A DNA stretch of 64,000 nucleotides from a virus (IMGVR_UViG_3300028844_003737:1-64000), one strand, 5' to 3'; positions 5,616 through 23,853 are shown, numbered from the stretch's first letter. Program-made: numbers and translations. The notes: generated by a model not told the origin, from the sequence alone.

Positions 5616-6908
5616 ATGTTAAAGAAAATCTTAATAGGCCTGTTATTGGTCTCTTCATTGTTTGGAGAAAATGAACTTTGGAAGTTTTTTAAATACTCGA
5701 CTGCATATGGTAGTTTTAGTTTAAATGCGCCAAGATATCAAGACGATAGATTTGCTATTACAGGTGGATTGTCAACTGGTAACTTAGTAGTTGAAAGAAC
5801 TGAAAGAGAACTAAAGCCTGATTTTCAAACATCCTTTGGACTTCGTAAAATTGGTAGATTTCAATATGAACCAAAGAGAGGAGTCAAATCAGCTGGTAAA
5901 GGTGGAACTTGGTATGATGGTTCAGAACATAATGCTAATGAAAGTGCTACATTTGGACCTGTAAAAGGTTGGGAGTATCTAATCAAATGGTCAGAAGGTA
6001 GACAGTGGGGTAATGACTATGTAAACCAAGAATATTGGGTAAGATATATTGGTGAGTATTTGATGGGTAAAGTTGGACTAACTGAATTAGGTCTAGAAGA
6101 TATTAGCTATGTTCACGGAGATTTGAGATTACACCTCACACCAGAAGCTCTAAATGATAAACTACATTTTTCTATTGGACTAAAACATAGACAACATCCT
6201 GTATATGGATTTGATGCTATGGTTCTTGATACAACTTGGTATAAGGGACAGTGGTGGAACTTTGCTGAAGATGCTTTTGGTGTTGATGATAATATGTGGT
6301 ATGATCCAACAATGCAAGATGAAGATGGTAATTGGATAAAGAATGAATTATTTGAAATAGACCCCAACACAGGTGAACTTAGAAGAATTGAAGGTTCAGG
6401 ACCATTTTGGAATGAAGGTGGAGAATATTGGGGACATGATTGGTTATGGAGAGATGCTGATGGTCGTATCTTCGCATACACAGATAGAGAATATTTTGTA
6501 TATCACTTTCCAAGAATGTTAGAGGGATACATTGAAGATAAGAAAAAAGATTTAGGATACCAAAGTGAAACATCTTTAGTATTAGGGATAGATTGGTATC
6601 ACTATGGTGAGAACTGGTGGATACATGGTTGGGGTAATTGGTTACCGATGCACTATGGACATACTGATTATGCTTATCATAATGCTGCTCATTATCAAAC
6701 TCATTTAGAAGAAGGTAATGATCCAAGTGAATTTATGTTGATGAAACCAATGTGGCATAGTTGGAATGATTATGATATGGGTGCTATATTAGGAGTTAAG
6801 ATAAAGGATAATATGGGAGTATTTACAGAAGGTAGATATTTATATTATTGGGAAAGGCCGGCTTATGATATAAAGTTCGGTATGAATTATCAATTTGTAG
6901 GATGGTAA
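5616..6908 (+). CDS. Secreted, probable outer-membrane beta-barrel protein
   Basis: Sec signal MLKKILIGLLLVSSLFG; very Trp/Tyr/Gly-rich amphipathic strands; terminal strand YDIKFGMNYQF. Confidence 0.6.
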   Translation: MLKKILIGLLLVSSLFGENELWKFFKYSTAYGSFSLNAPRYQDDRFAITGGLSTGNLVVERTERELKPDFQTSFGLRKIGRFQYEPKRGVKSAGKGGTWYDGSEHNANESATFGPVKGWEYLIKWSEGRQWGNDYVNQEYWVRYIGEYLMGKVGLTELGLEDISYVHGDLRLHLTPEALNDKLHFSIGLKHRQHPVYGFDAMVLDTTWYKGQWWNFAEDAFGVDDNMWYDPTMQDEDGNWIKNELFEIDPNTGELRRIEGSGPFWNEGGEYWGHDWLWRDADGRIFAYTDREYFVYHFPRMLEGYIEDKKKDLGYQSETSLVLGIDWYHYGENWWIHGWGNWLPMHYGHTDYAYHNAAHYQTHLEEGNDPSEFMLMKPMWHSWNDYDMGAILGVKIKDNMGVFTEGRYLYYWERPAYDIKFGMNYQFVGW

Positions 6909-6919
6909 GGAGAACGATT

Positions 6920-6958
6920 ATGTGTGAATGTGAAAATTGCCAATGTGGTAAGAAATAA
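6920..6958 (+). CDS. 12-aa Cys-rich micropeptide MCECENCQCGKK (metallothionein-like)
   Basis: AAGGAG RBS at 6907-6912; fills the gap between two genes; CxCxxCxC. Confidence 0.5.
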   Translation: MCECENCQCGKK

Positions 6959-6973
6959 TAAACGGAGGTGACT

Positions 6974-7168
6974 ATGAAGTCAATACTAACAGGAATACTT
7001 TCTCTTTTTATTTTCTTTGGTGCTGTTCCAAATCTAAACGCTTCAGATATGAAGATGGATAATATGGAAGAAATCAAAAAGAAGAAAAAAAAGAAAGGTA
7101 AGAAAATGAAGAAGGGCAAAAAGAAAGCGAAGAAAGGTTTCTTCTCTAAGCTTATAGGCTCTAAGTAA
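6974..7168 (+). CDS. Small exported Lys-rich protein
   Basis: GGAGG RBS; signal peptide followed by a poly-Lys tail. Confidence 0.7.
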   Translation: MKSILTGILSLFIFFGAVPNLNASDMKMDNMEEIKKKKKKKGKKMKKGKKKAKKGFFSKLIGSK

Positions 7169-7179
7169 GAAAGGTAAGA

Positions 7180-7473
7180 ATGAATAATCCGATAGCAAAG
7201 TTTTATCAATGGCAAGTCTCATCTGGCGCATTAGATGGTTGGACATCATATCATTTAGCAGCTGGTTTGTTTATAGCAAAGGTTGCACAATGGTTAGGTT
7301 GTTCTGATTTTTGGGCTGTGATGTGGGTTGCCATTATCGGTGTCGCTTGGGAAATCTTCGAAGTATATGTAGAAGGTACTGAAGAAACTTATGGCACAAA
7401 GAAGAGATGGGCATATAACACAGGCGCTGACTTATTTGTAGAAATAGCAGCTGCTTGGTGGATGGTTCTGTAA
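7180..7473 (+). CDS. Small multi-pass membrane protein
   Basis: About 3 hydrophobic helices; WEIFE motif. Confidence 0.7.
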   Translation: MNNPIAKFYQWQVSSGALDGWTSYHLAAGLFIAKVAQWLGCSDFWAVMWVAIIGVAWEIFEVYVEGTEETYGTKKRWAYNTGADLFVEIAAAWWMVL

Positions 7474-7586
7474 TGGATAGCTTATCAGTTTGGAATGAAC
7501 TAAGTTATCTAGATGGTATCTTATTTACAGTATGGTTAGGTATACTATACTATGGTAAGTGCTGGATAGATAGCAAATTCAAATAG
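7473..7586 (+). CDS. 37-aa single-TM peptide (MDSLSVWNELSYLDGILFTVWLGILYYGKCWIDSKFK)
   Basis: TAATG coupling; fills the gap; absent from the ORF track. Confidence 0.55.
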   Translation: MDSLSVWNELSYLDGILFTVWLGILYYGKCWIDSKFK

Positions 7587-7592
7587 GAGACT

Positions 7593-8033
7593 ATGATGAT
7601 ATTACAAATTTTATTTTGCTTACTTATAATCCTTTATTGGTTTAGTGAAGGTGTAACCGAAGGTTGGACTTGGAGTACTAAAGCAAGAAAGAATAAGAAT
7701 AAGCTAATACATCCGAACAATGGAAAGAATGGTATATTCGATTATCATATGTGGAGAATATTAGAGAATGTAGGAATATGGGGTGCTGTAATTGTAGCAT
7801 TTTTTATCGAAGCATCGTTTGCTAAATTCTTTTGGTTAGGTGTTGGTAGTTGGTTCATCGGAACATTTTGTTATGAAGCCGCTTTGAATCACGTGAATAA
7901 AGGAACAATTTATAAACCAGTAGATTACAAATGGCATATCTTAGGATACGACATTCCTTGGTGGGGTGGTAAAAAGATTTATATCTTACCAGCTACTGGA
8001 CTAATAGTACTATTGTACGGAATGTGGATATAA
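7593..8033 (+). CDS. Multi-pass membrane protein
   Basis: 4 hydrophobic segments; AGGAG RBS. Confidence 0.7.
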   Translation: MMILQILFCLLIILYWFSEGVTEGWTWSTKARKNKNKLIHPNNGKNGIFDYHMWRILENVGIWGAVIVAFFIEASFAKFFWLGVGSWFIGTFCYEAALNHVNKGTIYKPVDYKWHILGYDIPWWGGKKIYILPATGLIVLLYGMWI

Positions 8034-8179
8034 TGCCAAATAAGAATGCTAAACAGAAAAAACAAAGAAGAGCCGCACTAAATAAAAAGTGGGCTAAAGA
8101 GGGTAGGACTGCTAATCAATATAAAAAGTGGTTAGCAAAAGAAGGAAATAAACCAAATAAAGGATTTGGTAGGAGATAA
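8033..8179 (+). CDS. 48-aa basic peptide (MPNKNAKQKKQRRAALNKKW...)
   Basis: TAATG coupling; fills the gap; absent from the ORF track. Confidence 0.6.
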   Translation: MPNKNAKQKKQRRAALNKKWAKEGRTANQYKKWLAKEGNKPNKGFGRR

Positions 8180-8182
8180 GAA

Positions 8183-8779
8183 ATGAGTTATTATGACATA
8201 TACAATAATCTAAAACTATTTTGTTTGATAGGAATGATATCTTTGTTTACATTTAATTGTGACAGTAGAGATGAAGAGCCATTAGAAGAAAGCATTGAGA
8301 TGTGGGTAAATGGCACAGAGTTTAATGTCCGTGAGTATTACGAAAGTATTACTACATACGGAGCATCATCAGTACAAGAAGATGGTTCTATAAAAAAGAT
8401 ATTTGTACTACACTTTCAAAGAGAAGATGGTAGAGTTACACCTGAGAAAGAACATTATGCTTTGATTATGTATGATAACAATGGACAAGATAATGGTCAA
8501 CTAATAGATACTAAATTATATTTAGGTGGTACTCAAATGGATTCATTATTACTTGAAACTACAAGTGGTAGAATAACATTAGAGATTGTTGGACTATCCG
8601 ATTTTACAGAATTTGCACAAGCATCAATACAAAAGTATGAGGATGGTAAAGTTAGTGGAATCGCAGATGGATACTTTTTCAACCCATATAGAAATGAAAT
8701 GCAACATGGTATAATTATTTTTGATAACTTAGAAGTGGGTACAGATCCTGAGGCTACATTTTACCAAGGAGTATATTAG
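8183..8779 (+). CDS. Putative lipoprotein
   Basis: Hydrophobic stretch ending FTFNC followed by acidic DSRDEE; beta-rich body. Confidence 0.55.
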   Translation: MSYYDIYNNLKLFCLIGMISLFTFNCDSRDEEPLEESIEMWVNGTEFNVREYYESITTYGASSVQEDGSIKKIFVLHFQREDGRVTPEKEHYALIMYDNNGQDNGQLIDTKLYLGGTQMDSLLLETTSGRITLEIVGLSDFTEFAQASIQKYEDGKVSGIADGYFFNPYRNEMQHGIIIFDNLEVGTDPEATFYQGVY

Positions 8780-9462
8780 TGAGTGAAAATGGAATCAAGT
8801 TAGGTCAGTTGTTATGTGATGAAGATGTTATCACAAAAAGACAACTAAGCAAAGCCTTACAAGAACAAGTCAAAGGTAGGAAAGGTACACTTGGTGAGAT
8901 TCTTGTAGATATGGGTGTATGTACATTTGAGGATATTACCGATGCTATGATGAATCACAATTCGGATACTCAAAAACACGAAGAGAAACACGAAGAGATT
9001 CACAAAGAACCTACACCACCACCTACAGTTCAACCTACACTACAGCCCGTAGTAGAAGAACCAAAGGTAATAGAACCAGTAGTAGAAGAACCTATAGAAC
9101 TTTCAGAAGAAAAAGTTATGGGTACAAAGTTTACAATGTCCTTGCAAACATTAGGCGCATTGATTAGTGTAATAGCCGCGGGAGTCGGTGGTTACTATAT
9201 GTTACTACAAGAGATTGAAGAAGCAAAAAATCTTCCCGAACCACCATCTATAGAATCTATATTTGGTGATGAGTATCCATCCAAGCCCGATGGACATAAC
9301 TGGCCTCGTTCATACGAACAATACAAATCACAAGTAGGTGGTTTGCAAGAAGATATGGATGCCGTCTATGAAATAATAGATGAGTACGAAGAGGCTATTG
9401 AAGATTTAGAAAAGCTCGTAGCAAATTTACGAGTTGAAGTTGCAAAGAAAAAGGACAAGTAG
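8779..9462 (+). CDS. MshEN (T2SSE_N-like) domain + Pro/Glu linker + TM helix + coiled coil
   Basis: KLGQLLCDEDVITKRQLSKALQEQ and TLGEILVDMGVCTFEDI match the tandem RLGxxLxxxGxIxxxxLxxxLxxQ motif. Confidence 0.75.
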   Translation: MSENGIKLGQLLCDEDVITKRQLSKALQEQVKGRKGTLGEILVDMGVCTFEDITDAMMNHNSDTQKHEEKHEEIHKEPTPPPTVQPTLQPVVEEPKVIEPVVEEPIELSEEKVMGTKFTMSLQTLGALISVIAAGVGGYYMLLQEIEEAKNLPEPPSIESIFGDEYPSKPDGHNWPRSYEQYKSQVGGLQEDMDAVYEIIDEYEEAIEDLEKLVANLRVEVAKKKDK

Positions 9463-9471
9463 GAGTTACTT

Positions 9472-9846
9472 ATGAAATATTTATTAGGATTATTATTATT
9501 TCTTTCTGTTACTATAGGACAAGTAAATGATAAGAACTTTAAAGAATCTATAAATGGTGGGATGGCTGTCGTAGTAGTTACAGCAGAATGGCAAGAACAA
9601 CCATTTGACGAAGATATTCTAGAAGGAGTAAAAGGATATCAGGATTGTAAAATAGTAAGAATAAAAAGTAAAGAAGCTCCAAAGGTTGTAAAGAAACTTA
9701 GGTTTAGAAACTTTCCATCTATGGCTTTATTCTATGACGGTTCTAAGAAAGAAACTTGGAAGGCTGATATGGATGGTGAGTTGGACATTGATAGTAAAGA
9801 CATAAAAGGTGCTATTGATGATGTACTAGCAGAGGACGTGTTCTAA
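9472..9846 (+). CDS. Secreted thioredoxin-fold protein lacking CxxC
   Basis: Signal peptide; NDKNFKE..VVVTAEW..RFRNFPSMALFYDG pattern. Confidence 0.6.
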   Translation: MKYLLGLLLFLSVTIGQVNDKNFKESINGGMAVVVVTAEWQEQPFDEDILEGVKGYQDCKIVRIKSKEAPKVVKKLRFRNFPSMALFYDGSKKETWKADMDGELDIDSKDIKGAIDDVLAEDVF

Positions 9847-9937
9847 GTCAAAATCTGTAAATATATTCACGTATATCTAATTATTCACACATAAACATAA
9901 TATTTATTATAGACTAACTGAAGATGAGGAGACTGTT

Positions 9938-10279
9938 GTGGAAACTAAAACAATAGAATCCCTTATCGGTGAGTATGGTTGGTTATTTATCGCGGGTGTT
10001 CTAACCCTGTTATTTCAAAGTACTATACAAGAGGCCGTTGATGGGATAATGGTTTTTTTAGGAAACGACTACAATGAAGATGATGTTGTAGAGGTTGATG
10101 GTGATCCAGGTCGTATCGTAAGAGTCGGTATGTGGAAAACTACATTCTTTATATATCATGTCGTAAATGGTAAGATAGTTGGAGGTTCAAAATTAGTAGT
10201 GGCTAATTCTAAACTCAAAGATTTGAAAATAGAAAAACCATTACCAAATTTAGATTTGTCCAAATATGATACAGAGTAA
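9938..10279 (+). CDS. Minimal MscS-family protein (TM + beta domain)
   Basis: TM3-like helix, then YNEDDVVEVDGDPGRIVRVGMWKTTF...VANSKL. Confidence 0.65.
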   Translation: METKTIESLIGEYGWLFIAGVLTLLFQSTIQEAVDGIMVFLGNDYNEDDVVEVDGDPGRIVRVGMWKTTFFIYHVVNGKIVGGSKLVVANSKLKDLKIEKPLPNLDLSKYDTE

Positions 10280-10321
10280 CAAAAGTTTACATATAGATCG
10301 GTAAATTATGTTACACAAGAT

Positions 10322-10346
10322 AGAGTGCTTACGGGCACTCTTTTTT
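10322..10346 (+). terminator. Rho-independent terminator
   Basis: AGAGTGC-TTACGG-GCACTCT followed by a T run. Confidence 0.85.
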
Positions 10347-10365
10347 GTTTAAAATAGTTGCTATC

Positions 10366-10443
10366 GTAAGTCGTTATATATCAACACATAAAATTATTTT
10401 TATTTATTTCTTGAATTTAGCATGCTTTGGTATGGTTATTGTA
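10366..10443 (+). promoter_or_regulatory. IHF-like site plus sigma54 (-24/-12)-like promoter of the pilin genes
   Basis: TAAGTCGTTATATATCAACAC at ~10367-10387; TTGGTATGGTTATTGTA with GG(10429-30)-N10-GT(10441-42). Confidence 0.5.
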
Positions 10444-10503
10444 GTATATAAGTAGAATGAGTCATTAGGACAAATTCAAATTGAATAAATAGGGAGGACT
10501 GAA

Positions 10504-11163
10504 ATGTTCGATATGATAAAAAGATTTTTCAAAAAACTAAATAAAAAGCTTAGAAAGAATACAGGAAACTCACTTGCTGAATTTGCTGTTACTACCGCTA
10601 TGATGGCAACACTTGCTACTACAGCTGCTCCTAAGTTTGGTAATGTTGGTGCTGCTGCTAAAGAGAAGAAGTCAATTGCTAACATTGATAAGATATTAAC
10701 AGTAGCCAACAACTACTACAACCAAGCAGTATCTGAAGAAGGAAAGGGAAGATTTCCTGGACAATCAAAGTATGACCAACCTGTAGGTGGGATTGACTTG
10801 TCAGATGGAGCATATACTGATGAAACTCTTGAAGCATACATTGAAACTATACTTGAACAAAAACAATCATATGAATCTGAATTAGGTGAGTTTGTTTATG
10901 TATTTTCAGCATCTTCTGATGACGATGACGCTTTACAAGATGATTGGATGAACTTAGAAACATCTGTTGGATTCAATTCAGGTGGAGCACTTGACTTCAA
11001 AAAAGACTTTGGTAACAAAGGAATCAAGTCACCATTTCAGGATGGTTCGTATGCTTACTTAGTAATACCAGGAAGTGGTAGTGGAACAGATGCTCAAGCA
11101 CCTGCTCTTGTCGTAATAGACACAGAGAATCCAGGAATGCTATTTAAAACTTTAGTACCTTAA
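10504..11163 (+). CDS. Type IV pilin-like protein with atypical class III signal (G|NSLAE)
   Basis: Basic leader, Gly-1, Glu+5, long apolar helix with Pro22 (AAPKF). Confidence 0.75.
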   Translation: MFDMIKRFFKKLNKKLRKNTGNSLAEFAVTTAMMATLATTAAPKFGNVGAAAKEKKSIANIDKILTVANNYYNQAVSEEGKGRFPGQSKYDQPVGGIDLSDGAYTDETLEAYIETILEQKQSYESELGEFVYVFSASSDDDDALQDDWMNLETSVGFNSGGALDFKKDFGNKGIKSPFQDGSYAYLVIPGSGSGTDAQAPALVVIDTENPGMLFKTLVP

Positions 11164-11198
11164 TTTAATAATAGAAACAATAACCGAAAGGAAAGAAA

Positions 11199-11642
11199 AT
11201 GAAGAACATACTCAAAAACACAAGTAAGGGTTTTACCTTGATTGAATTAGTAATGGTTACAATCATATTGGGAATCTTAGCGGCTGTAGCAATACCTCGT
11301 TATCAACAGACTGTAGATAATGCGGAAGAAGCTGCAGAAAAGACATTTGTCGATATGGTATGGGCTGGATGTGAACAAGAAGCTTCTGAAAGAATAACTG
11401 AGACTGGACTTGAGGCATGGCCTTATAATCCACTAACAGTTATTGGTAGAAGTCGTAACATATCAGTTACATTGTTTGAAGGTGTACCCGATGAAGATAA
11501 CGAATGGCAGTTTAGTGTAGATGCGGCTGGTGAACCAGCAATATTTCATCACAGACGAAACGATGAAATCTATTACTACAAGTACGATTCATTGACATTT
11601 GAGTTGGACGAACTACCTACGCTTTATACAAACGAAGGATAA
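11199..11642 (+). CDS. Type IV pilin / prepilin-type N-methylation protein
   Basis: KG|FTLIELVMVTIILGILAAVAIPRY canonical motif. Confidence 0.92.
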   Translation: MKNILKNTSKGFTLIELVMVTIILGILAAVAIPRYQQTVDNAEEAAEKTFVDMVWAGCEQEASERITETGLEAWPYNPLTVIGRSRNISVTLFEGVPDEDNEWQFSVDAAGEPAIFHHRRNDEIYYYKYDSLTFELDELPTLYTNEG

Positions 11643-11692
11643 TTAATGGGGGAATTTATAACGATTTCCCCTATTTATTATAAAGAGGTATT

Positions 11693-12136
11693 ATGAGATT
11701 AAATCTTACAGATGATATTTTAGAACTTGTATTAGGTGGATTAATAATGGTTACTTTAGGGTTCGTATTCTTTAGAAGTGACGAATCCATTAAAGTACAA
11801 AAAGAACCTACTATTGATGACTTTTATGAGTTCCCACTACAAGCGTGGCAGACCACAGACTTACAAGGTGGAGATTGTATAAAGATTAGATATATGGTTA
11901 CTAAACCAAAGACTCGTTTGATTATGAAAAGCGCTGATGGAATAAGGGTACATATGCAACCAATATCTTTGAGTCCGAGAAAAGGTGAAGATAGAATAGA
12001 AACTTATGTATGGAAACTATATCGTACAGAATGGACAGATAAAATATCACCAGGTGAATATCTTATAATAGTAGGAACCGACCACGATAGGAGACCATCC
12101 AAAACAAACTTATCAATAAAGGTAGATGTATTATGA
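11693..12136 (+). CDS. Membrane-anchored beta-rich (Ig-like) protein
   Basis: N-terminal TM; W....SPGEYLIIV pattern. Confidence 0.5.
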   Translation: MRLNLTDDILELVLGGLIMVTLGFVFFRSDESIKVQKEPTIDDFYEFPLQAWQTTDLQGGDCIKIRYMVTKPKTRLIMKSADGIRVHMQPISLSPRKGEDRIETYVWKLYRTEWTDKISPGEYLIIVGTDHDRRPSKTNLSIKVDVL

Positions 12137-12747
12137 AAAAAACCTTGACTTCTATATTTTTGATGATAGTGATAGTGAACAATCCAATATTTTCACAAGA
12201 AATCAAACGGACATCAGAGTTCAAAAGAGATGTTGCATATGGAATAGAATGTGATGATACAGAATACAGAGATTACAAAGGCTCGCCTGCTTGGAAAGGA
12301 TATGGTGGATGGATATCCGAATGCGATTCAATTCGTACAACACGATTAAATGCTGAGTTTGCTCTTAGGTCAAAAGAAAGACAAAGACAAAAAGCAATTC
12401 AAGATAGCATAGATATTGCAACAGCATCTTTTGATGATATAGACTTAGATGTTATGTGGGAAAATACAGTGTGGGAAGAGATTGACGAAATTACAGAAGT
12501 ATACGGCGAAGTAGAACAAATAACTGCTGTTGCTGGAGTTCGTGGTGCTGAAGCAGAAGATGAAGCATTGAATCATTTATACTATAGAAGAAGTATGAAA
12601 GGCTTAGCTCTAATAGATTTACAAAAAGCTTATGGCAAGTTATCAATCAAAAGGGAAAATCTTATAAAGATAAATCCAAACCATCCTAAATTGGAGAAGA
12701 TAGACAATCTTTTATCTCAATTAAAAATAAAAATGAAAAAAGTATAA
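12133..12747 (+). CDS. Secreted hypothetical protein
   Basis: Signal peptide; AVAGVRGAE motif. Confidence 0.6.
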   Translation: MKKTLTSIFLMIVIVNNPIFSQEIKRTSEFKRDVAYGIECDDTEYRDYKGSPAWKGYGGWISECDSIRTTRLNAEFALRSKERQRQKAIQDSIDIATASFDDIDLDVMWENTVWEEIDEITEVYGEVEQITAVAGVRGAEAEDEALNHLYYRRSMKGLALIDLQKAYGKLSIKRENLIKINPNHPKLEKIDNLLSQLKIKMKKV

Positions 12748-20551: not shown

Positions 20552-20866
20552 GTGGGTGAAAAAGATTTGGTAACTAAAGATGCTAGACAAAATCAAAAAC
20601 ATTTTATAAATGTAAAATTAGTAGATCTAATTGAATACAGACAATCACGAAAGTGGTATGTTAGTATTGCTGTTGTAGGTATGTTTGCTGTAATACTCAT
20701 ACTTATGATTTATTTTATGAGCCAAGGTAAAGATGTTACCGATGGATGGAAGGAAATTCTCTTACTAATGTTAGGTGGATTTGTTGGTTCATTTGCTAAG
20801 GTAATAGACTTCTGGTTCAATAATCAAGAGAATGATAATAAACTCTTAGAACACGCAGACGACTAA
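20552..20866 (+). CDS. Two-TM holin-like protein
   Basis: 2 TM helices ending ..VIDFWF; upstream of the endolysin. Confidence 0.5.
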   Translation: MGEKDLVTKDARQNQKHFINVKLVDLIEYRQSRKWYVSIAVVGMFAVILILMIYFMSQGKDVTDGWKEILLLMLGGFVGSFAKVIDFWFNNQENDNKLLEHADD

Positions 20867-21519
20867 TGAATATTGCTACGTTAGCTGGTCATCTAGCATT
20901 TGGACTCATTGGTTTTTCATTCTTAGTCAAAGATATATTTTGGCTTAGAATGGTATCTATAGCTGCGAGTTTATTCTCAGTATTTTATAACTACACCATT
21001 CCAACTGAACCAATGTGGTTAGCTATCAATTGGAACTTTATTTTTATCGCAGTAAATGCTTATCATATAGGAGTTATTTTATATGAGAAGCGAGCGGTAA
21101 AGATGGACTCTAAAAACGAAGAGTTATACCAAACCTTATTTAGTGAGATGACTCCAGTAGAATATCTAAAAGTTAGTAGAGCAGCTAAATGGGAGACAGT
21201 AAAATCAGGAGAACGGCTCATAACACAAGGTATGCCAGTTCCTGATTTGTATCTTATATATAATGGTACAGTAGATGTATTGGTTGATAACAGCACAATA
21301 GCTCAACTAAAAGATGGAGAGTTTGTTGGTGAGATGTCTTTCCTCACAGAAAAAGTAGCTACAGCAACCTGTAAAGTAAAATACGATGCAATATGTTTGG
21401 TTTGGAAACAAAGAGAATTTAAGGAATTACTAAAGCGTAATCCGTCACTATACTTTACTATACAATCTGTATTATCAGCGCAGGTATCAGATAAGTTAGT
21501 AAGTAGTACAAAGAAATAG
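20866..21519 (+). CDS. Popeye-like membrane protein with a cyclic-nucleotide-binding domain
   Basis: 3 TM (KDIFWLR, WN motifs), then CNBD LITQG..LYLIYNGTVDV..GEFVGEMSF..ATAT. Confidence 0.85.
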   Translation: MNIATLAGHLAFGLIGFSFLVKDIFWLRMVSIAASLFSVFYNYTIPTEPMWLAINWNFIFIAVNAYHIGVILYEKRAVKMDSKNEELYQTLFSEMTPVEYLKVSRAAKWETVKSGERLITQGMPVPDLYLIYNGTVDVLVDNSTIAQLKDGEFVGEMSFLTEKVATATCKVKYDAICLVWKQREFKELLKRNPSLYFTIQSVLSAQVSDKLVSSTKK

Positions 21520-22965: not shown

Positions 22966-23853
22966 ATGTTTGAATCATCAAAATCATTTCATAAGTTAGT
23001 AGGATTTTCAGCATTAGCAATAGCTGGGAGCGCTGCTTTCTTTTCGGTTTTTGGGTTATCAAAATTATTTGCTGGTGCTCAATTTGCTGTAGTTATAATG
23101 GCTGGTTCATTAGAATTTGGTAAGTTAGTAGCAGCATCGTTTTTATATAGATATTGGGAAAGAATCAATATCATGCATAAAACTTATATGACAATAGCAA
23201 CCATCATACTCGTACTGATAACATCTGCTGGCATATTTGGATTTTTATCCAATGCTTATCAAGGTGCTACAGTAGGATTTGAAAAGGAATCTACTGCATT
23301 GATATATAAGGAAGATAGGTTAGACCAATTACAAGATGACAAAAAATTTCTGAAAGAGGAATTAGAAGCAGCTGTAAGTGAACTACCTGAAAACTATCGT
23401 ACTGCTAAAAGAAAACTAAGAGAAGAGTATCAACCAAAAATAAATCAAATCAATACTGATATGATGAATTTGAAGTCTGATATTGGAGATTTAAAAATAG
23501 CACTAGTAGAAACAGGAGTAGAAGTAGGACCAGCTATTTATTTAGCTAGGGTATTCGACACCGATGTAGATACAGTAGTGAAATTTTTTATCTTTGTTCT
23601 TATCTTTGTTTTTGATCCAATGGCAGTTCTTTTTGTTATTAGTTACAATGTTATTTTAGAAAAAGATAATATTACACCTACACCAAAAAAGAAAAATAAA
23701 AAAAGATGGTGGGAAGTATATGGTGAAAGTGCTAAACAAAAAAAGAAAGAATGGAAAGATAACATAAAATCTACAGTTAGTAACGATGAACGATTCGATA
23801 CAAAACCTAAAGAAGACCCTGTCCAATCAAGACAAGGAAGAAAAATAATATAA
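22966..23853 (+). CDS. Membrane protein with coiled coil (common in T4-like phages)
   Basis: 3 TM, coiled coil, EVGP..FVFDPMA TM. Confidence 0.7.
   Translation: MFESSKSFHKLVGFSALAIAGSAAFFSVFGLSKLFAGAQFAVVIMAGSLEFGKLVAASFLYRYWERINIMHKTYMTIATIILVLITSAGIFGFLSNAYQGATVGFEKESTALIYKEDRLDQLQDDKKFLKEELEAAVSELPENYRTAKRKLREEYQPKINQINTDMMNLKSDIGDLKIALVETGVEVGPAIYLARVFDTDVDTVVKFFIFVLIFVFDPMAVLFVISYNVILEKDNITPTPKKKNKKRWWEVYGESAKQKKKEWKDNIKSTVSNDERFDTKPKEDPVQSRQGRKII

What the first reader, a model, noticed from the sequence alone, without database searches (positions are those of the whole stretch)
5616..12747. Phage-encoded envelope / type IV pilus remodelling island
Seen: a contiguous ~7-kb run in which nearly every product is exported or membrane-bound. 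It includes a beta-barrel-like protein, a lipoprotein, an MshEN-TM protein, a periplasmic Trx-fold protein, a mini-MscS and two pilins. No PilB/PilC/PilQ/PilD gene is present in the window. Known: type IV pili are common phage receptors, pilins need host PilD/PilB, and MshEN domains regulate PilB/MshE through c-di-GMP. Inference: the phage hijacks the host pilus machine, either swapping in its own pilins to mask the receptor (superinfection exclusion) or changing adhesion of infected cells. This is the best candidate in the window for an undescribed system.
Basis: partly seen in the sequence, partly recalled or inferred. Interest (0 to 1): 0.85.

Follow-up and report, generated by a model that had tools for sequence, protein, structure and literature searches.

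The report
Phage pilin operon beside envelope trio
An uncultured ocean phage that probably infects SAR406 (Marinimicrobia) bacteria carries two separate gene sets side by side: pilus-subunit genes copied from its host, still behind a host-type promoter, and a virus-only set of outer-membrane, inner-membrane and periplasmic proteins that lies among the cell-bursting genes of other phages. It is not one pilus-remodelling machine.

Summary
Window 5616-12747 encodes 13 co-directional proteins, and 12 have a signal peptide or a membrane helix. The calls for barrel, lipoprotein candidate, MshEN-TM, Cys-less thioredoxin fold and two pilins were confirmed; "mini-MscS" stayed below threshold. No PilB, PilC, PilD or secretin gene occurs in six related phage records.

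Module 1 (A-F-G-H, 5616-9846) is a virus-only barrel / coiled-coil / redox-dead thioredoxin set. It recurs in unrelated marine phages that lack pilins, usually next to endolysin and holin genes. It is therefore a candidate device for the outer-membrane step of lysis. Its MshEN-type domain is an optional N-terminal addition.

Module 2 (10428-12747) is a pilin operon captured from Marinimicrobia type IV pilus loci. The N-terminal helix matches the host's, a sigma54-type promoter is conserved, and host and phage have exchanged these genes repeatedly. The pilins must rely on host PilD, PilB, PilC and secretin. Their likeliest role is altering pili of infected cells, as with Pseudomonas P-FimU.

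The two modules are adjacent in 23 related loci and separate in 16. This scan reached the same readings earlier on other DNA (e1-6007509, e1-3862023 and others). No function has been tested.

The parts
5616..6908 (+). A: 430-aa outer-membrane beta-barrel candidate (module 1)
   Evidence: It has a signal peptide and a C-terminal aromatic residue. AF2 pLDDT is 74, and all top Foldseek hits are OM barrels such as NanC, FapF, BcsC and porins. The family is virus-only with 279 representatives. No homolog was found in 5 candidate host genomes.
6968..8179 (+). B, C, D, E: small exported, membrane or basic proteins (66, 97, 146, 51 aa); variable passengers
   Evidence: Hydrophobic segments are present in B, C and D. 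Their presence and position vary among related loci. No family hits were found.
8183..8779 (+). F: 198-aa lipoprotein candidate (optional member of module 1)
   Evidence: A Cys conserved after the signal sequence is followed by acidic residues. F is present in 45 related loci and in some distant lineages between A and G.
8779..9462 (+). G: bitopic inner-membrane protein. Cytoplasmic MshEN_N-type four-helix domain (residues 7-60), Pro/Glu linker, TM helix (~118-140), periplasmic conserved motif and coiled coil
   Evidence: NF053729 scores 47.3 bits against a cut-off of 38. The PDB profile search hits PilF, PilB and MshE. Distant lineages carry a 94-aa form with only the TM helix and coiled coil.
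9472..9846 (+). H: exported thioredoxin-fold protein without CxxC (module 1)
   Evidence: Pfam Thioredoxin E = 4e-4 here and 7e-6 (above cut-off) in the sister lineage. The sequence has WQEQ where WCGPC would stand.
9938..10279 (+). I: 113-aa single-TM protein with weak MscS beta-domain similarity; mobile passenger
   Evidence: MS_channel_2nd E = 0.038, below the cut-off. It lies before A or after M in other loci.
10322..10341 (+). Intrinsic terminator-like hairpin with T-run that closes the upstream unit
10428..10443 (+). sigma54-type -24/-12 promoter variant TGGTAT-N5-TTGTA upstream of J
   Evidence: It is the only match in 64 kb. The same variant is found in 39 of 45 distinct phage J upstream regions, against 20 of 398 random segments. 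Host J genes carry the canonical TGGCAY-N5-TTGCW.
10504..11163 (+). J: 219-aa Marinimicrobia-type pilin (G|NSLAEFAVTTAMMATLATTAAPKF; Glu5, Pro22)
11199..11642 (+). K: 147-aa canonical type IV pilin (G|FTLIE)
   Evidence: Pfam N_methyl, TIGR02532 and PHROG 3433 'pilin' all match. Host K arrays are seen and K classes.
11648..11671 (+). Terminator-like hairpin directly after K
11693..12136 (+). L: 147-aa membrane-anchored Ig-like beta-sandwich protein with an invariant Glu before the TM helix; phage-specific
   Evidence: AF2 pLDDT is 85. Foldseek gives only generic beta-sandwich matches. No host homolog was found.
12133..12747 (+). M: 204-aa exported protein. The N-terminal half has two Cys. The C-terminal half is homologous to a 152-aa secreted host protein
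   Evidence: The alignment is. Host matches score 1e-38 to 1e-44 in 5 of 5 genomes.

Best explanation
The stretch holds two adjacent but independent modules of a large uncultured marine myovirus whose host is most likely a Marinimicrobia (SAR406) bacterium.

Module 2 (promoter at 10428, then J, K, L, M) is a pilin operon captured from the host's type IV pilus locus. It is transcribed by host sigma54 RNA polymerase. The prepilins are cleaved by host PilD and fed into the host PilB/PilC/secretin machine, so infected cells carry pili that contain phage-specific subunits. The most likely benefit is a changed pilus surface that blocks adsorption of competing phages, as shown for P-FimU. L and M are phage-added periplasmic accessories.

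Module 1 (A, F, G, H) is a virus-only set spanning the envelope: an outer-membrane barrel, an inner-membrane protein with a periplasmic coiled coil, an exported redox-dead thioredoxin fold and an optional lipoprotein. It most likely acts on the outer membrane at lysis, in a role analogous to spanins. In this lineage, G carries an extra cytoplasmic MshEN-type domain that could add a c-di-GMP or protein-binding input.

Shown: gene content, homologies, synteny, promoter conservation and absence of machinery genes. Inferred: processing, incorporation, exclusion, the lysis role and ligand binding.
For: Separateness of the two modules:
- H is followed by J in 23 loci, and the two are apart in 16.
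- A-G'-H' occurs in 57 of 57 loci of a lineage where A is only about 27% identical, with no J or K nearby.
- Complete genomes of 31.5, 36 and 164 kb and a 90% complete genome of 32 kb carry A and G but no N_methyl match and no J-profile match. The window served as positive control.
- A terminator and a promoter lie between I and J.

Pilins derive from the host:
- J homologs at 35-47% tblastn identity occur in 45 loci, mostly Marinimicrobia, including single-cell genomes and contigs of 220-583 kb.
- The host N-terminus is the same.
- Hosts have tandem arrays of 2-6 J genes followed by 1-17 K genes.
- One host locus reads RR - PilD - PilB - sigma54 activator - PilC - J J - K x10, with a secretin downstream.
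- Some phage J proteins are 76-80% identical to host J but only 49-54% to the window's J. Phage K classes are 59-69% identical to host K.

Promoter: conserved in phage and host. rpoN is present in 5 of 5 hosts and in none of the phage records.

Link of module 1 to lysis:
- Three non-homologous cell-wall hydrolase candidates occupy the slot after H': Amidase_2 with PG_binding_1, Peptidase_M15_3, and an unassigned 206-aa family.
- A Phage_holin_4_1 holin follows them.
- In small phages, a GH24 lysozyme or an M15 peptidase abuts G/A/H.

Precedent: P-FimU and P-PilA (PMC12952977).
Against: - No experiment exists for any step.
- In the window's own lineage the trio is not beside a recognisable endolysin. 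An SLT-domain gene lies 14-30 kb away in two related records, and none was found in this record.
- G differs from i-spanins by its long cytoplasmic domain.
- No small o-spanin-like lipoprotein is present, and there is no sequence similarity to known spanins.
- The window's J sits on a long phage-specific branch and is at most 55% identical to any sampled host J. Incorporation into the pilus is therefore not assured.
- It is unknown whether any phage of this host uses pili as a receptor.
- The -12 element is GT rather than the conserved GC, so sigma54 dependence is inferred, not shown.
- Motif II of G has Thr and His where Arg and Gln stand. These are changes of the kind seen in the non-binding PilF GSPII-A domain (PMC12002112).
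- The tree is a quick search, not the finished careful one.
Confidence: 0.6

Rival explanations
1. One reading: all 13 genes form one phage-encoded pilus-remodelling system. The MshEN-TM protein controls host PilB through c-di-GMP or by mimicking its N-domain, the barrel and lipoprotein serve the filament at the outer membrane, and the pilins replace host subunits.
For: The genes are adjacent and co-directional here and in 23 related loci. G's N-domain belongs to the same family as the N-domain of host PilB, which lies beside the host pilin array. The hosts encode a GGDEF protein.
Against: The trio, including the MshEN-bearing form of G, occurs in complete phage genomes without pilins. The modules are apart in 16 loci. 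They are separate transcription units. G is only 25-30% identical to host PilB N-domains. The hosts have their own secretin.
Confidence: 0.12
2. The pilin operon is an auxiliary 'maintenance' gene set. The phage resupplies fast-turnover pilus subunits so that a host pilus function, such as attachment to particles or DNA uptake for nucleotides, continues after host transcription declines.
For: The host-type promoter is kept and the N-terminal helix matches the host's. Pilins are repeatedly refreshed from hosts. The neighbourhood holds other host-like metabolic genes such as PhoH.
Against: The main phage J clade has diverged far from host J in its globular part, which fits altered rather than preserved function. 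L and the N-terminal half of M are phage-specific additions. The function of pili in SAR406 is unknown.
Confidence: 0.18
3. Module 1 is not a lysis device. It is a surface-modification or exclusion complex, for example for receptor masking or blocking of DNA entry, that merely travels near lysis genes.
For: In this lineage it sits among host-interaction genes, far from the only endolysin candidate. Phage outer-membrane proteins and lipoproteins with exclusion roles are known (general knowledge: lambda Lom and Bor, T5 Llp).
Against: The set is tightly and repeatedly juxtaposed with endolysins of at least four kinds and with holins in unrelated lineages.
Confidence: 0.2
4. The pilin segment is a chimeric assembly or a stray host insert without function in the phage.
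For: Pilins are host-like. One short contig binned with a bacterial MAG (L125) carries the phage-type cluster.
Against: The same J-K-L-M order between the same phage flanks is found in dozens of independent viral contigs from many samples. GC content is uniform. The proteins are conserved and the promoter is conserved. Near-identical sequence is present in metatranscriptome libraries.
Confidence: 0.02

Closest known systems
P-FimU and P-PilA: pilus subunits encoded by Pseudomonas F10-like prophages, Xylella prophages and some virulent phages (Sztanko et al., Cell Rep 2026, PMC12952977)
   Same: A phage-encoded homolog of a host type IV pilus subunit with no machinery of its own. It is expected to be processed and assembled by the host and to change what other phages see.
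   Different: Here a whole host-style operon is carried: a J-type pilin plus one to three K-type pilins, a sigma54-type promoter and two phage-specific periplasmic partners. It sits in a large, apparently virulent marine phage of an uncultured phylum. No adsorption or incorporation data exist.
Two-component spanins (lambda Rz/Rz1; survey by Kongari et al. 2018, PMC6139136)
   Same: G, or its short form G', is an inner-membrane protein with a periplasmic coiled coil, paired with an outer-membrane partner. In other lineages the genes lie in lysis cassettes.
   Different: The outer-membrane partner would be a 350-430-aa beta-barrel rather than a small lipoprotein. A Cys-less thioredoxin-fold protein is always included. 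There is no sequence similarity to any spanin family. G here has a 117-aa cytoplasmic extension. In this window no endolysin is adjacent.
MshEN (GSPII) c-di-GMP-binding domains of MshE, PilB, PilF and NfrB (Wang et al. 2016, PMC5013675)
   Same: G has tandem 24-residue motifs forming the 53-residue four-helix unit and passes NCBIfam NF053729.
   Different: The domain stands alone, with no ATPase or glycosyltransferase and no second (PF05157) subdomain, and is tethered to a TM helix and a periplasmic coiled coil. Arg is replaced by Lys in motif I. In motif II, Arg is replaced by Thr and Gln by His.
Phage inhibitors of the type IV pilus motor (Tip, Aqs1, PlzR-type; PMC13436744, PMC11461919)
   Different: Those are small cytoplasmic proteins that bind PilB or PilZ. 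G is a membrane protein whose family is linked to the barrel/thioredoxin set, not to pilins.

Membership tests
Type IV pilin (class III signal peptide) | Prepilin cleavage/methylation motif G|(F/M)xxxE recognised by curated models | tested here: met
   K scores PF07963 30 bits (cut-off 21.2) and TIGR02532 28.4 (cut-off 16.3). J is not recognised by these models. It shows G|NSLAE with Glu5, and its profile hits pilin N-termini at E = 1.5e-4.
Type IV pilin (class III signal peptide) | Hydrophobic N-terminal alpha-helix with Pro22 (and Gly14) | tested here: met
   Read from the sequence. In J the mature residues 1-24 are NSLAEFAVTTAMMATLATTAAPKF (Pro22). In K they are FTLIELVMVTIILGILAAVAIPRY (Gly14, Pro22).
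Type IV pilin (class III signal peptide) | Cellular homologs lie in pilus gene clusters with PilD, PilB and PilC | tested here: met
   Host locus L152 and its contig G007:C1.
Type IV pilin (class III signal peptide) | Cleavage by prepilin peptidase and assembly into a filament | not testable with these tools
   Needs expression in a piliated host.
MshEN / GSPII c-di-GMP receptor domain | Two 24-residue motifs joined by a short spacer (53-residue unit) | tested here: met
   NF053729 scores 47.3 bits against a cut-off of 38 over residues 7-57. The spacer is 6 residues where MshE has 5.
MshEN / GSPII c-di-GMP receptor domain | Key ligand residues: Arg at motif position 1, Gln at position 24, and the conserved Leu/Gly positions | tested here: inconclusive
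   The hydrophobic and Gly positions are kept. The polar positions read K7, Q30, T37 and H60. Changes of the Thr/His type occur in the non-binding PilF GSPII-A domain.
MshEN / GSPII c-di-GMP receptor domain | Second alpha/beta subdomain (Pfam PF05157) and a fused output domain | tested here: not met
   G gives no PF05157 hit. Host PilB does, at residues 72-155.
MshEN / GSPII c-di-GMP receptor domain | Binds c-di-GMP | not testable with these tools
   Needs ITC or DRaCALA on residues 1-65.
Two-component spanin | i-spanin: N-terminal TM helix with a periplasmic coiled coil | tested here: inconclusive
   The short form G' fits (94 aa). G here has the TM helix at about residue 118, after a cytoplasmic domain.
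Two-component spanin | o-spanin: small outer-membrane lipoprotein gene embedded in, overlapping or directly after the i-spanin gene | tested here: not met
   F is 198 aa, lies upstream of G and is optional.
Two-component spanin | Located in the lysis cassette | tested here: inconclusive
   Met in distant lineages. Not met in this window or its lineage.
Two-component spanin | Sequence membership in a known spanin family | tested here: not met
   A, F, G and H give no PHROG, Pfam or NCBIfam spanin hit.
Thioredoxin | Thioredoxin-fold HMM match | tested here: inconclusive
   20.8 bits against 23.5 here. 26.4 bits against 23.5 for the sister-lineage ortholog.
Thioredoxin | CxxC active site | tested here: not met
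   WQEQ stands in place of WCGPC, and the site is absent in all orthologs seen.
MscS mechanosensitive channel | MS_channel domain match and at least 3 TM helices | tested here: not met
   The beta-domain match has E = 0.038, below the cut-off, and only one TM helix is present.

The most novel reading that the evidence does not exclude
The barrel / coiled-coil / dead-thioredoxin set is an undescribed class of phage device for breaching the outer membrane, used by many marine phages that lack recognisable spanins. In the SAR406-phage lineage and some small phages, its inner-membrane subunit has acquired an MshEN-type sensor, so that outer-membrane disruption, and hence lysis, is gated by the host's c-di-GMP state.
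Probability: 0.2. Interest if true: 0.8.

Novelty: new variant of a known kind. Interest (0 to 1): 0.55.

Why it matters
1. It gives sequence-based host assignment for an abundant, uncultured group of large marine phages to Marinimicrobia (SAR406), a phylum with no cultured phage-host system. The assignment rests on repeated pilin exchange.

2. It extends phage-encoded pilus subunits, so far shown for Pseudomonas and Xylella prophages, to a full host-style pilin operon with a retained sigma54-type promoter in an ocean virus. This suggests that pili are a contested receptor or function in the open ocean.

3. It separates from the pilins a virus-only envelope trio that sits in lysis cassettes elsewhere. 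If the trio is the missing outer-membrane step of lysis for these phages, that would fill a known gap, since about 15% of phages of Gram-negative hosts have no identifiable spanin (bioRxiv 10.1101/515445).

4. A stand-alone, membrane-tethered MshEN unit is an unusual architecture for this receptor domain.

Tried and rejected
- GenBank phages (50,697 records): no DNA match, and no protein match for A, G or J.
- Profile-versus-PDB searches for A and M found nothing useful.
- Foldseek on L gave only generic Ig-like sandwiches, so a pilin fold for L was rejected.
- A single-protein search for A in 5 host genomes found nothing. The G profile found only PilB N-termini there.
- Endolysin families Peptidase_M15_3, Phage_lysozyme, Amidase_2 and Peptidase_M15_4 were not found in the window's lineage. 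Only an SLT-domain gene was found, far from the trio.
- tblastn with the sister lineages' endolysins and holin found nothing in this record.
- The first sigma54 regular expression had the wrong spacing and found nothing. It was corrected.
- The careful maximum-likelihood tree did not finish, so the quick tree and pairwise identities were used.
- Metatranscriptome contigs from one study cover the whole stretch. They cannot show strand, level or transcript ends, and the libraries may contain DNA. They are counted as presence only.
- The Pfam 'Heliorhodopsin', 'Hemopexin', 'NifZ' and 'FabG' matches are sub-threshold and were judged chance.
- The GTA_holin_3TM hit of L020:13784-14209 is below the cut-off and has no homolog in this record.

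Full report
**What is there**

The window is one strand of a phage genome with about 33% GC, and almost all long ORFs are on the + strand. The record is a 74-kb fragment estimated at 40% complete. Its baseplate protein is nearest to those of Microcystis phage Mel-JY01 (48%) and Flavobacterium phage immuto (41%), so it is a large myovirus.

Between 5616 and 12747 lie 13 genes, labelled A to M here. Hydrophobicity scans give a signal peptide or TM helix for all but E, with J's Ala/Thr-rich helix just under the threshold. The flanking proteins have none.

- **A** is an outer-membrane barrel candidate. It has a signal peptide and a C-terminal aromatic residue. The AF2 model has pLDDT 74 with long antiparallel strands, and every top Foldseek hit is an outer-membrane barrel, although TM-scores are low.
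- **F** has a conserved Cys after its signal sequence, followed by acidic residues.
- **G** passes NCBI's curated model for the 53-residue MshE-type c-di-GMP motif domain (47.3 bits, cut-off 38). Its family profile finds PilF, PilB and MshE N-domains among solved structures.
- **H** is a thioredoxin fold without CxxC.
- **I** as "mini-MscS" rests on a sub-threshold hit.
- **K** is a textbook type IV pilin.
- **J** has G|NSLAEF with Glu5 and Pro22, and its profile matches pilin N-termini.

No PilB, PilC, PilD or secretin is encoded in this record or in five related records of 106-132 kb.

**Related phages show two modules**

Scans of IMG/VR with A and K returned 122 loci. Mapping all window proteins onto them gives two conserved blocks, A-(F)-G-H and J-K(x1-3)-L-M. 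B, C, D, E and I come and go or change place.

H is followed by J within 6 kb in 23 loci. In 16 loci with at least 6 kb of downstream sequence there is no J. In several contigs the pilin block lies about 20 kb from the barrel block.

In the window, a terminator-like hairpin (10322-10341) and a promoter-like site (10428-10443) separate I from J. A second hairpin follows K.

**The pilin block comes from Marinimicrobia**

A scan of one genome per prokaryotic species with the J alignment found 45 loci. Most are titled Marinimicrobia/Neomarinimicrobiota, including single-cell genomes and contigs of 220-583 kb.

The host proteins share the N-terminus G|(Q/N)SLAEFAVTTAMMATLATTAAPKF almost letter for letter. 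Host loci hold 2-6 tandem J genes followed by 1-17 K genes.

One host locus reads: response regulator, PilD, PilB (MshEN plus T2SSE), sigma54 activator, PilC, a restriction-like gene, two J genes, about ten K genes, minor pilins and a large LamG protein. A secretin lies a few kb further on.

The J tree places the window's J in a phage clade on a long stem. A second group of phage J proteins nests among host sequences. Pairwise values confirm this: those J proteins are 76-80% identical to host J but 49-54% to the window's J. Phage K paralogs likewise each have a closer host K (59-69%) than the window's K (43-47%). The operon has therefore been captured or refreshed from hosts more than once. 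This is the strongest available evidence for the host and for selection on compatibility with the host machine.

Host J genes are preceded by canonical sigma54 promoters, TGGCAY-N5-TTGCW (37 of 71 strict matches). Phage J genes are preceded by a fixed variant, TGGTAY-N5-TTGTA, in 39 of 45 distinct upstream regions against 20 of 398 random segments. The window's copy is the only match in 64 kb. All five host genomes tested encode sigma54, and no phage record does.

L is a membrane-anchored Ig-like sandwich (pLDDT 85) with an invariant Glu before its helix, no Gly at -1 and no host homolog. The C-terminal half of M matches a 152-aa secreted host protein in 5 of 5 host genomes. That host gene lies next to a TPR protein and a DUF5723 barrel, not in the pilus locus.

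**The barrel block is older, wider and linked to lysis**

An exhaustive profile search found 279 representative relatives of A, and the Atlas labels the nearest clusters viral.

Loci around two distant subfamilies keep the order A, then a short G' (94 aa: TM helix plus periplasmic coiled coil, no MshEN unit), then H' (thioredoxin fold, no CxxC). This holds in 57 of 57 loci with enough flank.

In about half of them the next genes are, in order:

- a cell-wall hydrolase candidate of one of three unrelated kinds: Amidase_2 with PG_binding_1, Peptidase_M15_3, or an unassigned 206-aa family;
- a Phage_holin_4_1 holin;
- a 370-aa membrane/coiled-coil protein, whose homolog lies at 22966-23853 in the window.

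In small phage genomes, a GH24 lysozyme lies two genes before an MshEN-bearing G and an A homolog. In another, the order is A, G, H, M15 peptidase.

Complete or 90% complete genomes of these lineages (31.5, 32, 36 and 164 kb) contain no N_methyl pilin and no J-type pilin, while the window gives both as controls. The G of the 36-kb type passes the NF053729 cut-off (44.7 bits). The short G' gives no hit.

The trio is thus a mobile phage module that does not depend on pilins. Its MshEN unit is an optional N-terminal addition that is also independent of pilins.

In the window's own lineage the trio is not next to an endolysin. The only candidate, an SLT-domain gene, lies 14-30 kb away in two related records.

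**How it most likely works**

For the pilins the chain is as follows, and every step is inferred:

1. Host sigma54 holoenzyme reads the retained promoter.
2. Host PilD cleaves after Gly.
3. The conserved Glu5/Pro22 helix docks into the host filament core.
4. The diverged globular parts change the pilus surface.

The documented precedent is P-FimU. It is incorporated without loss of pilus function and blocks phages that bind the pilus. PilA-like genes are also noted there in virulent phages. I put about 0.4 on exclusion as the benefit, 0.2 on maintenance of a pilus function and the rest on unknown.

For the trio, the architecture (inner-membrane coiled coil, outer-membrane barrel, periplasmic adaptor) and its place in lysis cassettes suggest a role at the outer-membrane step of lysis. 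It fails several defining features of spanins (see the membership test). It would therefore be an analog, not a member.

Whether G binds c-di-GMP cannot be told. The hydrophobic and Gly positions that carry most of the binding energy in MshE are kept. Motif II, however, has Thr and His at the Arg and Gln positions, like the non-binding GSPII-A domain of PilF. The hosts do encode one GGDEF protein each, in 4 of 5 genomes. G's N-domain is only 25-30% identical to host PilB N-domains, which themselves carry Lys rather than Arg at motif position 1.

**Comparison, novelty and verdict**

Phage-borne pilins are a known kind. This is a new, richer variant in an uncultured host phylum.

I found no description of the barrel/coiled-coil/thioredoxin trio in the literature searched. 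Earlier agents of this scan reached the same reading on other DNA: e1-3862023, e1-5743116, e1-6009862 and others for the trio, and e1-6007509 for the SAR406 pilin-plus-envelope island. I re-derived both here independently before seeing those notes.

Near-identical sequence is present across the whole stretch in four metatranscriptome libraries of one study. This shows presence only.

It is partly wrong: the barrel, lipoprotein, MshEN-TM protein and thioredoxin belong to a different, probably lysis-related, module.

Noticed in passing
window 10428-10443; phage loci upstream of J; host loci L126-L164: Phage J genes carry a fixed sigma54-type promoter variant (TGGTAY-N5-TTGTA, with GT instead of GC at -12). 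Each host J gene has the canonical TGGCAY-N5-TTGCW. The consistent -12 change across the phage lineage may alter the promoter's dependence on an activator.
   Followed up: partly
L149:11668-20200 and L152:11647-17063 (Marinimicrobia genomes): Host pilus loci contain very long tandem arrays of K-type pilin genes, about 17 in one and 10 in the other, after 2-3 J-type genes. This is an unusual degree of pilin multiplicity for free-living plankton.
   Followed up: no
window 20552-21519: A 217-aa membrane protein is 72% identical to L020:12973-13626, which matches Pfam POPDC1-3 and cNMP_binding. A 104-aa TM protein lies next to it. In related phages these two genes directly follow H, so about 11 kb, including the pilin operon, appears inserted here.
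   Followed up: partly
L202:10240-10860 and relatives (sister-lineage loci): A 201-206-aa protein family without any Pfam hit occupies the endolysin slot between H' and the holin in 16-18 loci. It contains an S-A-G-C-Q-V motif reminiscent of L,D-transpeptidase-type catalytic sites. It is a candidate new endolysin family.
   Followed up: no
L281:1444-1902 (host) against window 12133-12747: The C-terminal half of M, with the motif AVAGVRGAEAEDEAL...LYYR(R/K)SMKG, is homologous to a 152-aa secreted protein present once in each of 5 Marinimicrobia genomes. That gene lies beside a TPR protein and a DUF5723 outer-membrane barrel. Its function is unknown.
   Followed up: partly
window 11648-11671: A strong hairpin with a T-rich tail lies directly after the K pilin gene. 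This suggests that J-K is a short, highly expressed unit with read-through into L-M, as is common for major pilin genes.
   Followed up: no
G002:C1:10961-11245 and G003:C1:35703-35981 (related phage records): An SLT (lytic transglycosylase) domain gene of about 200 aa is the only endolysin candidate found in the window's lineage. It is not near the barrel trio and was not found in this 74-kb record.
   Followed up: partly
L125 (2.7-kb contig binned in a bacterial MAG), also L129, L135, L159: One short contig of phage type (J, K, K, K, L, M) is filed inside a bacterial MAG. Several host-type pilin contigs carry titles of other phyla (Balneolaceae, Methanobacteriota, Gammaproteobacteria). These are probably binning or labelling errors.
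   Followed up: no
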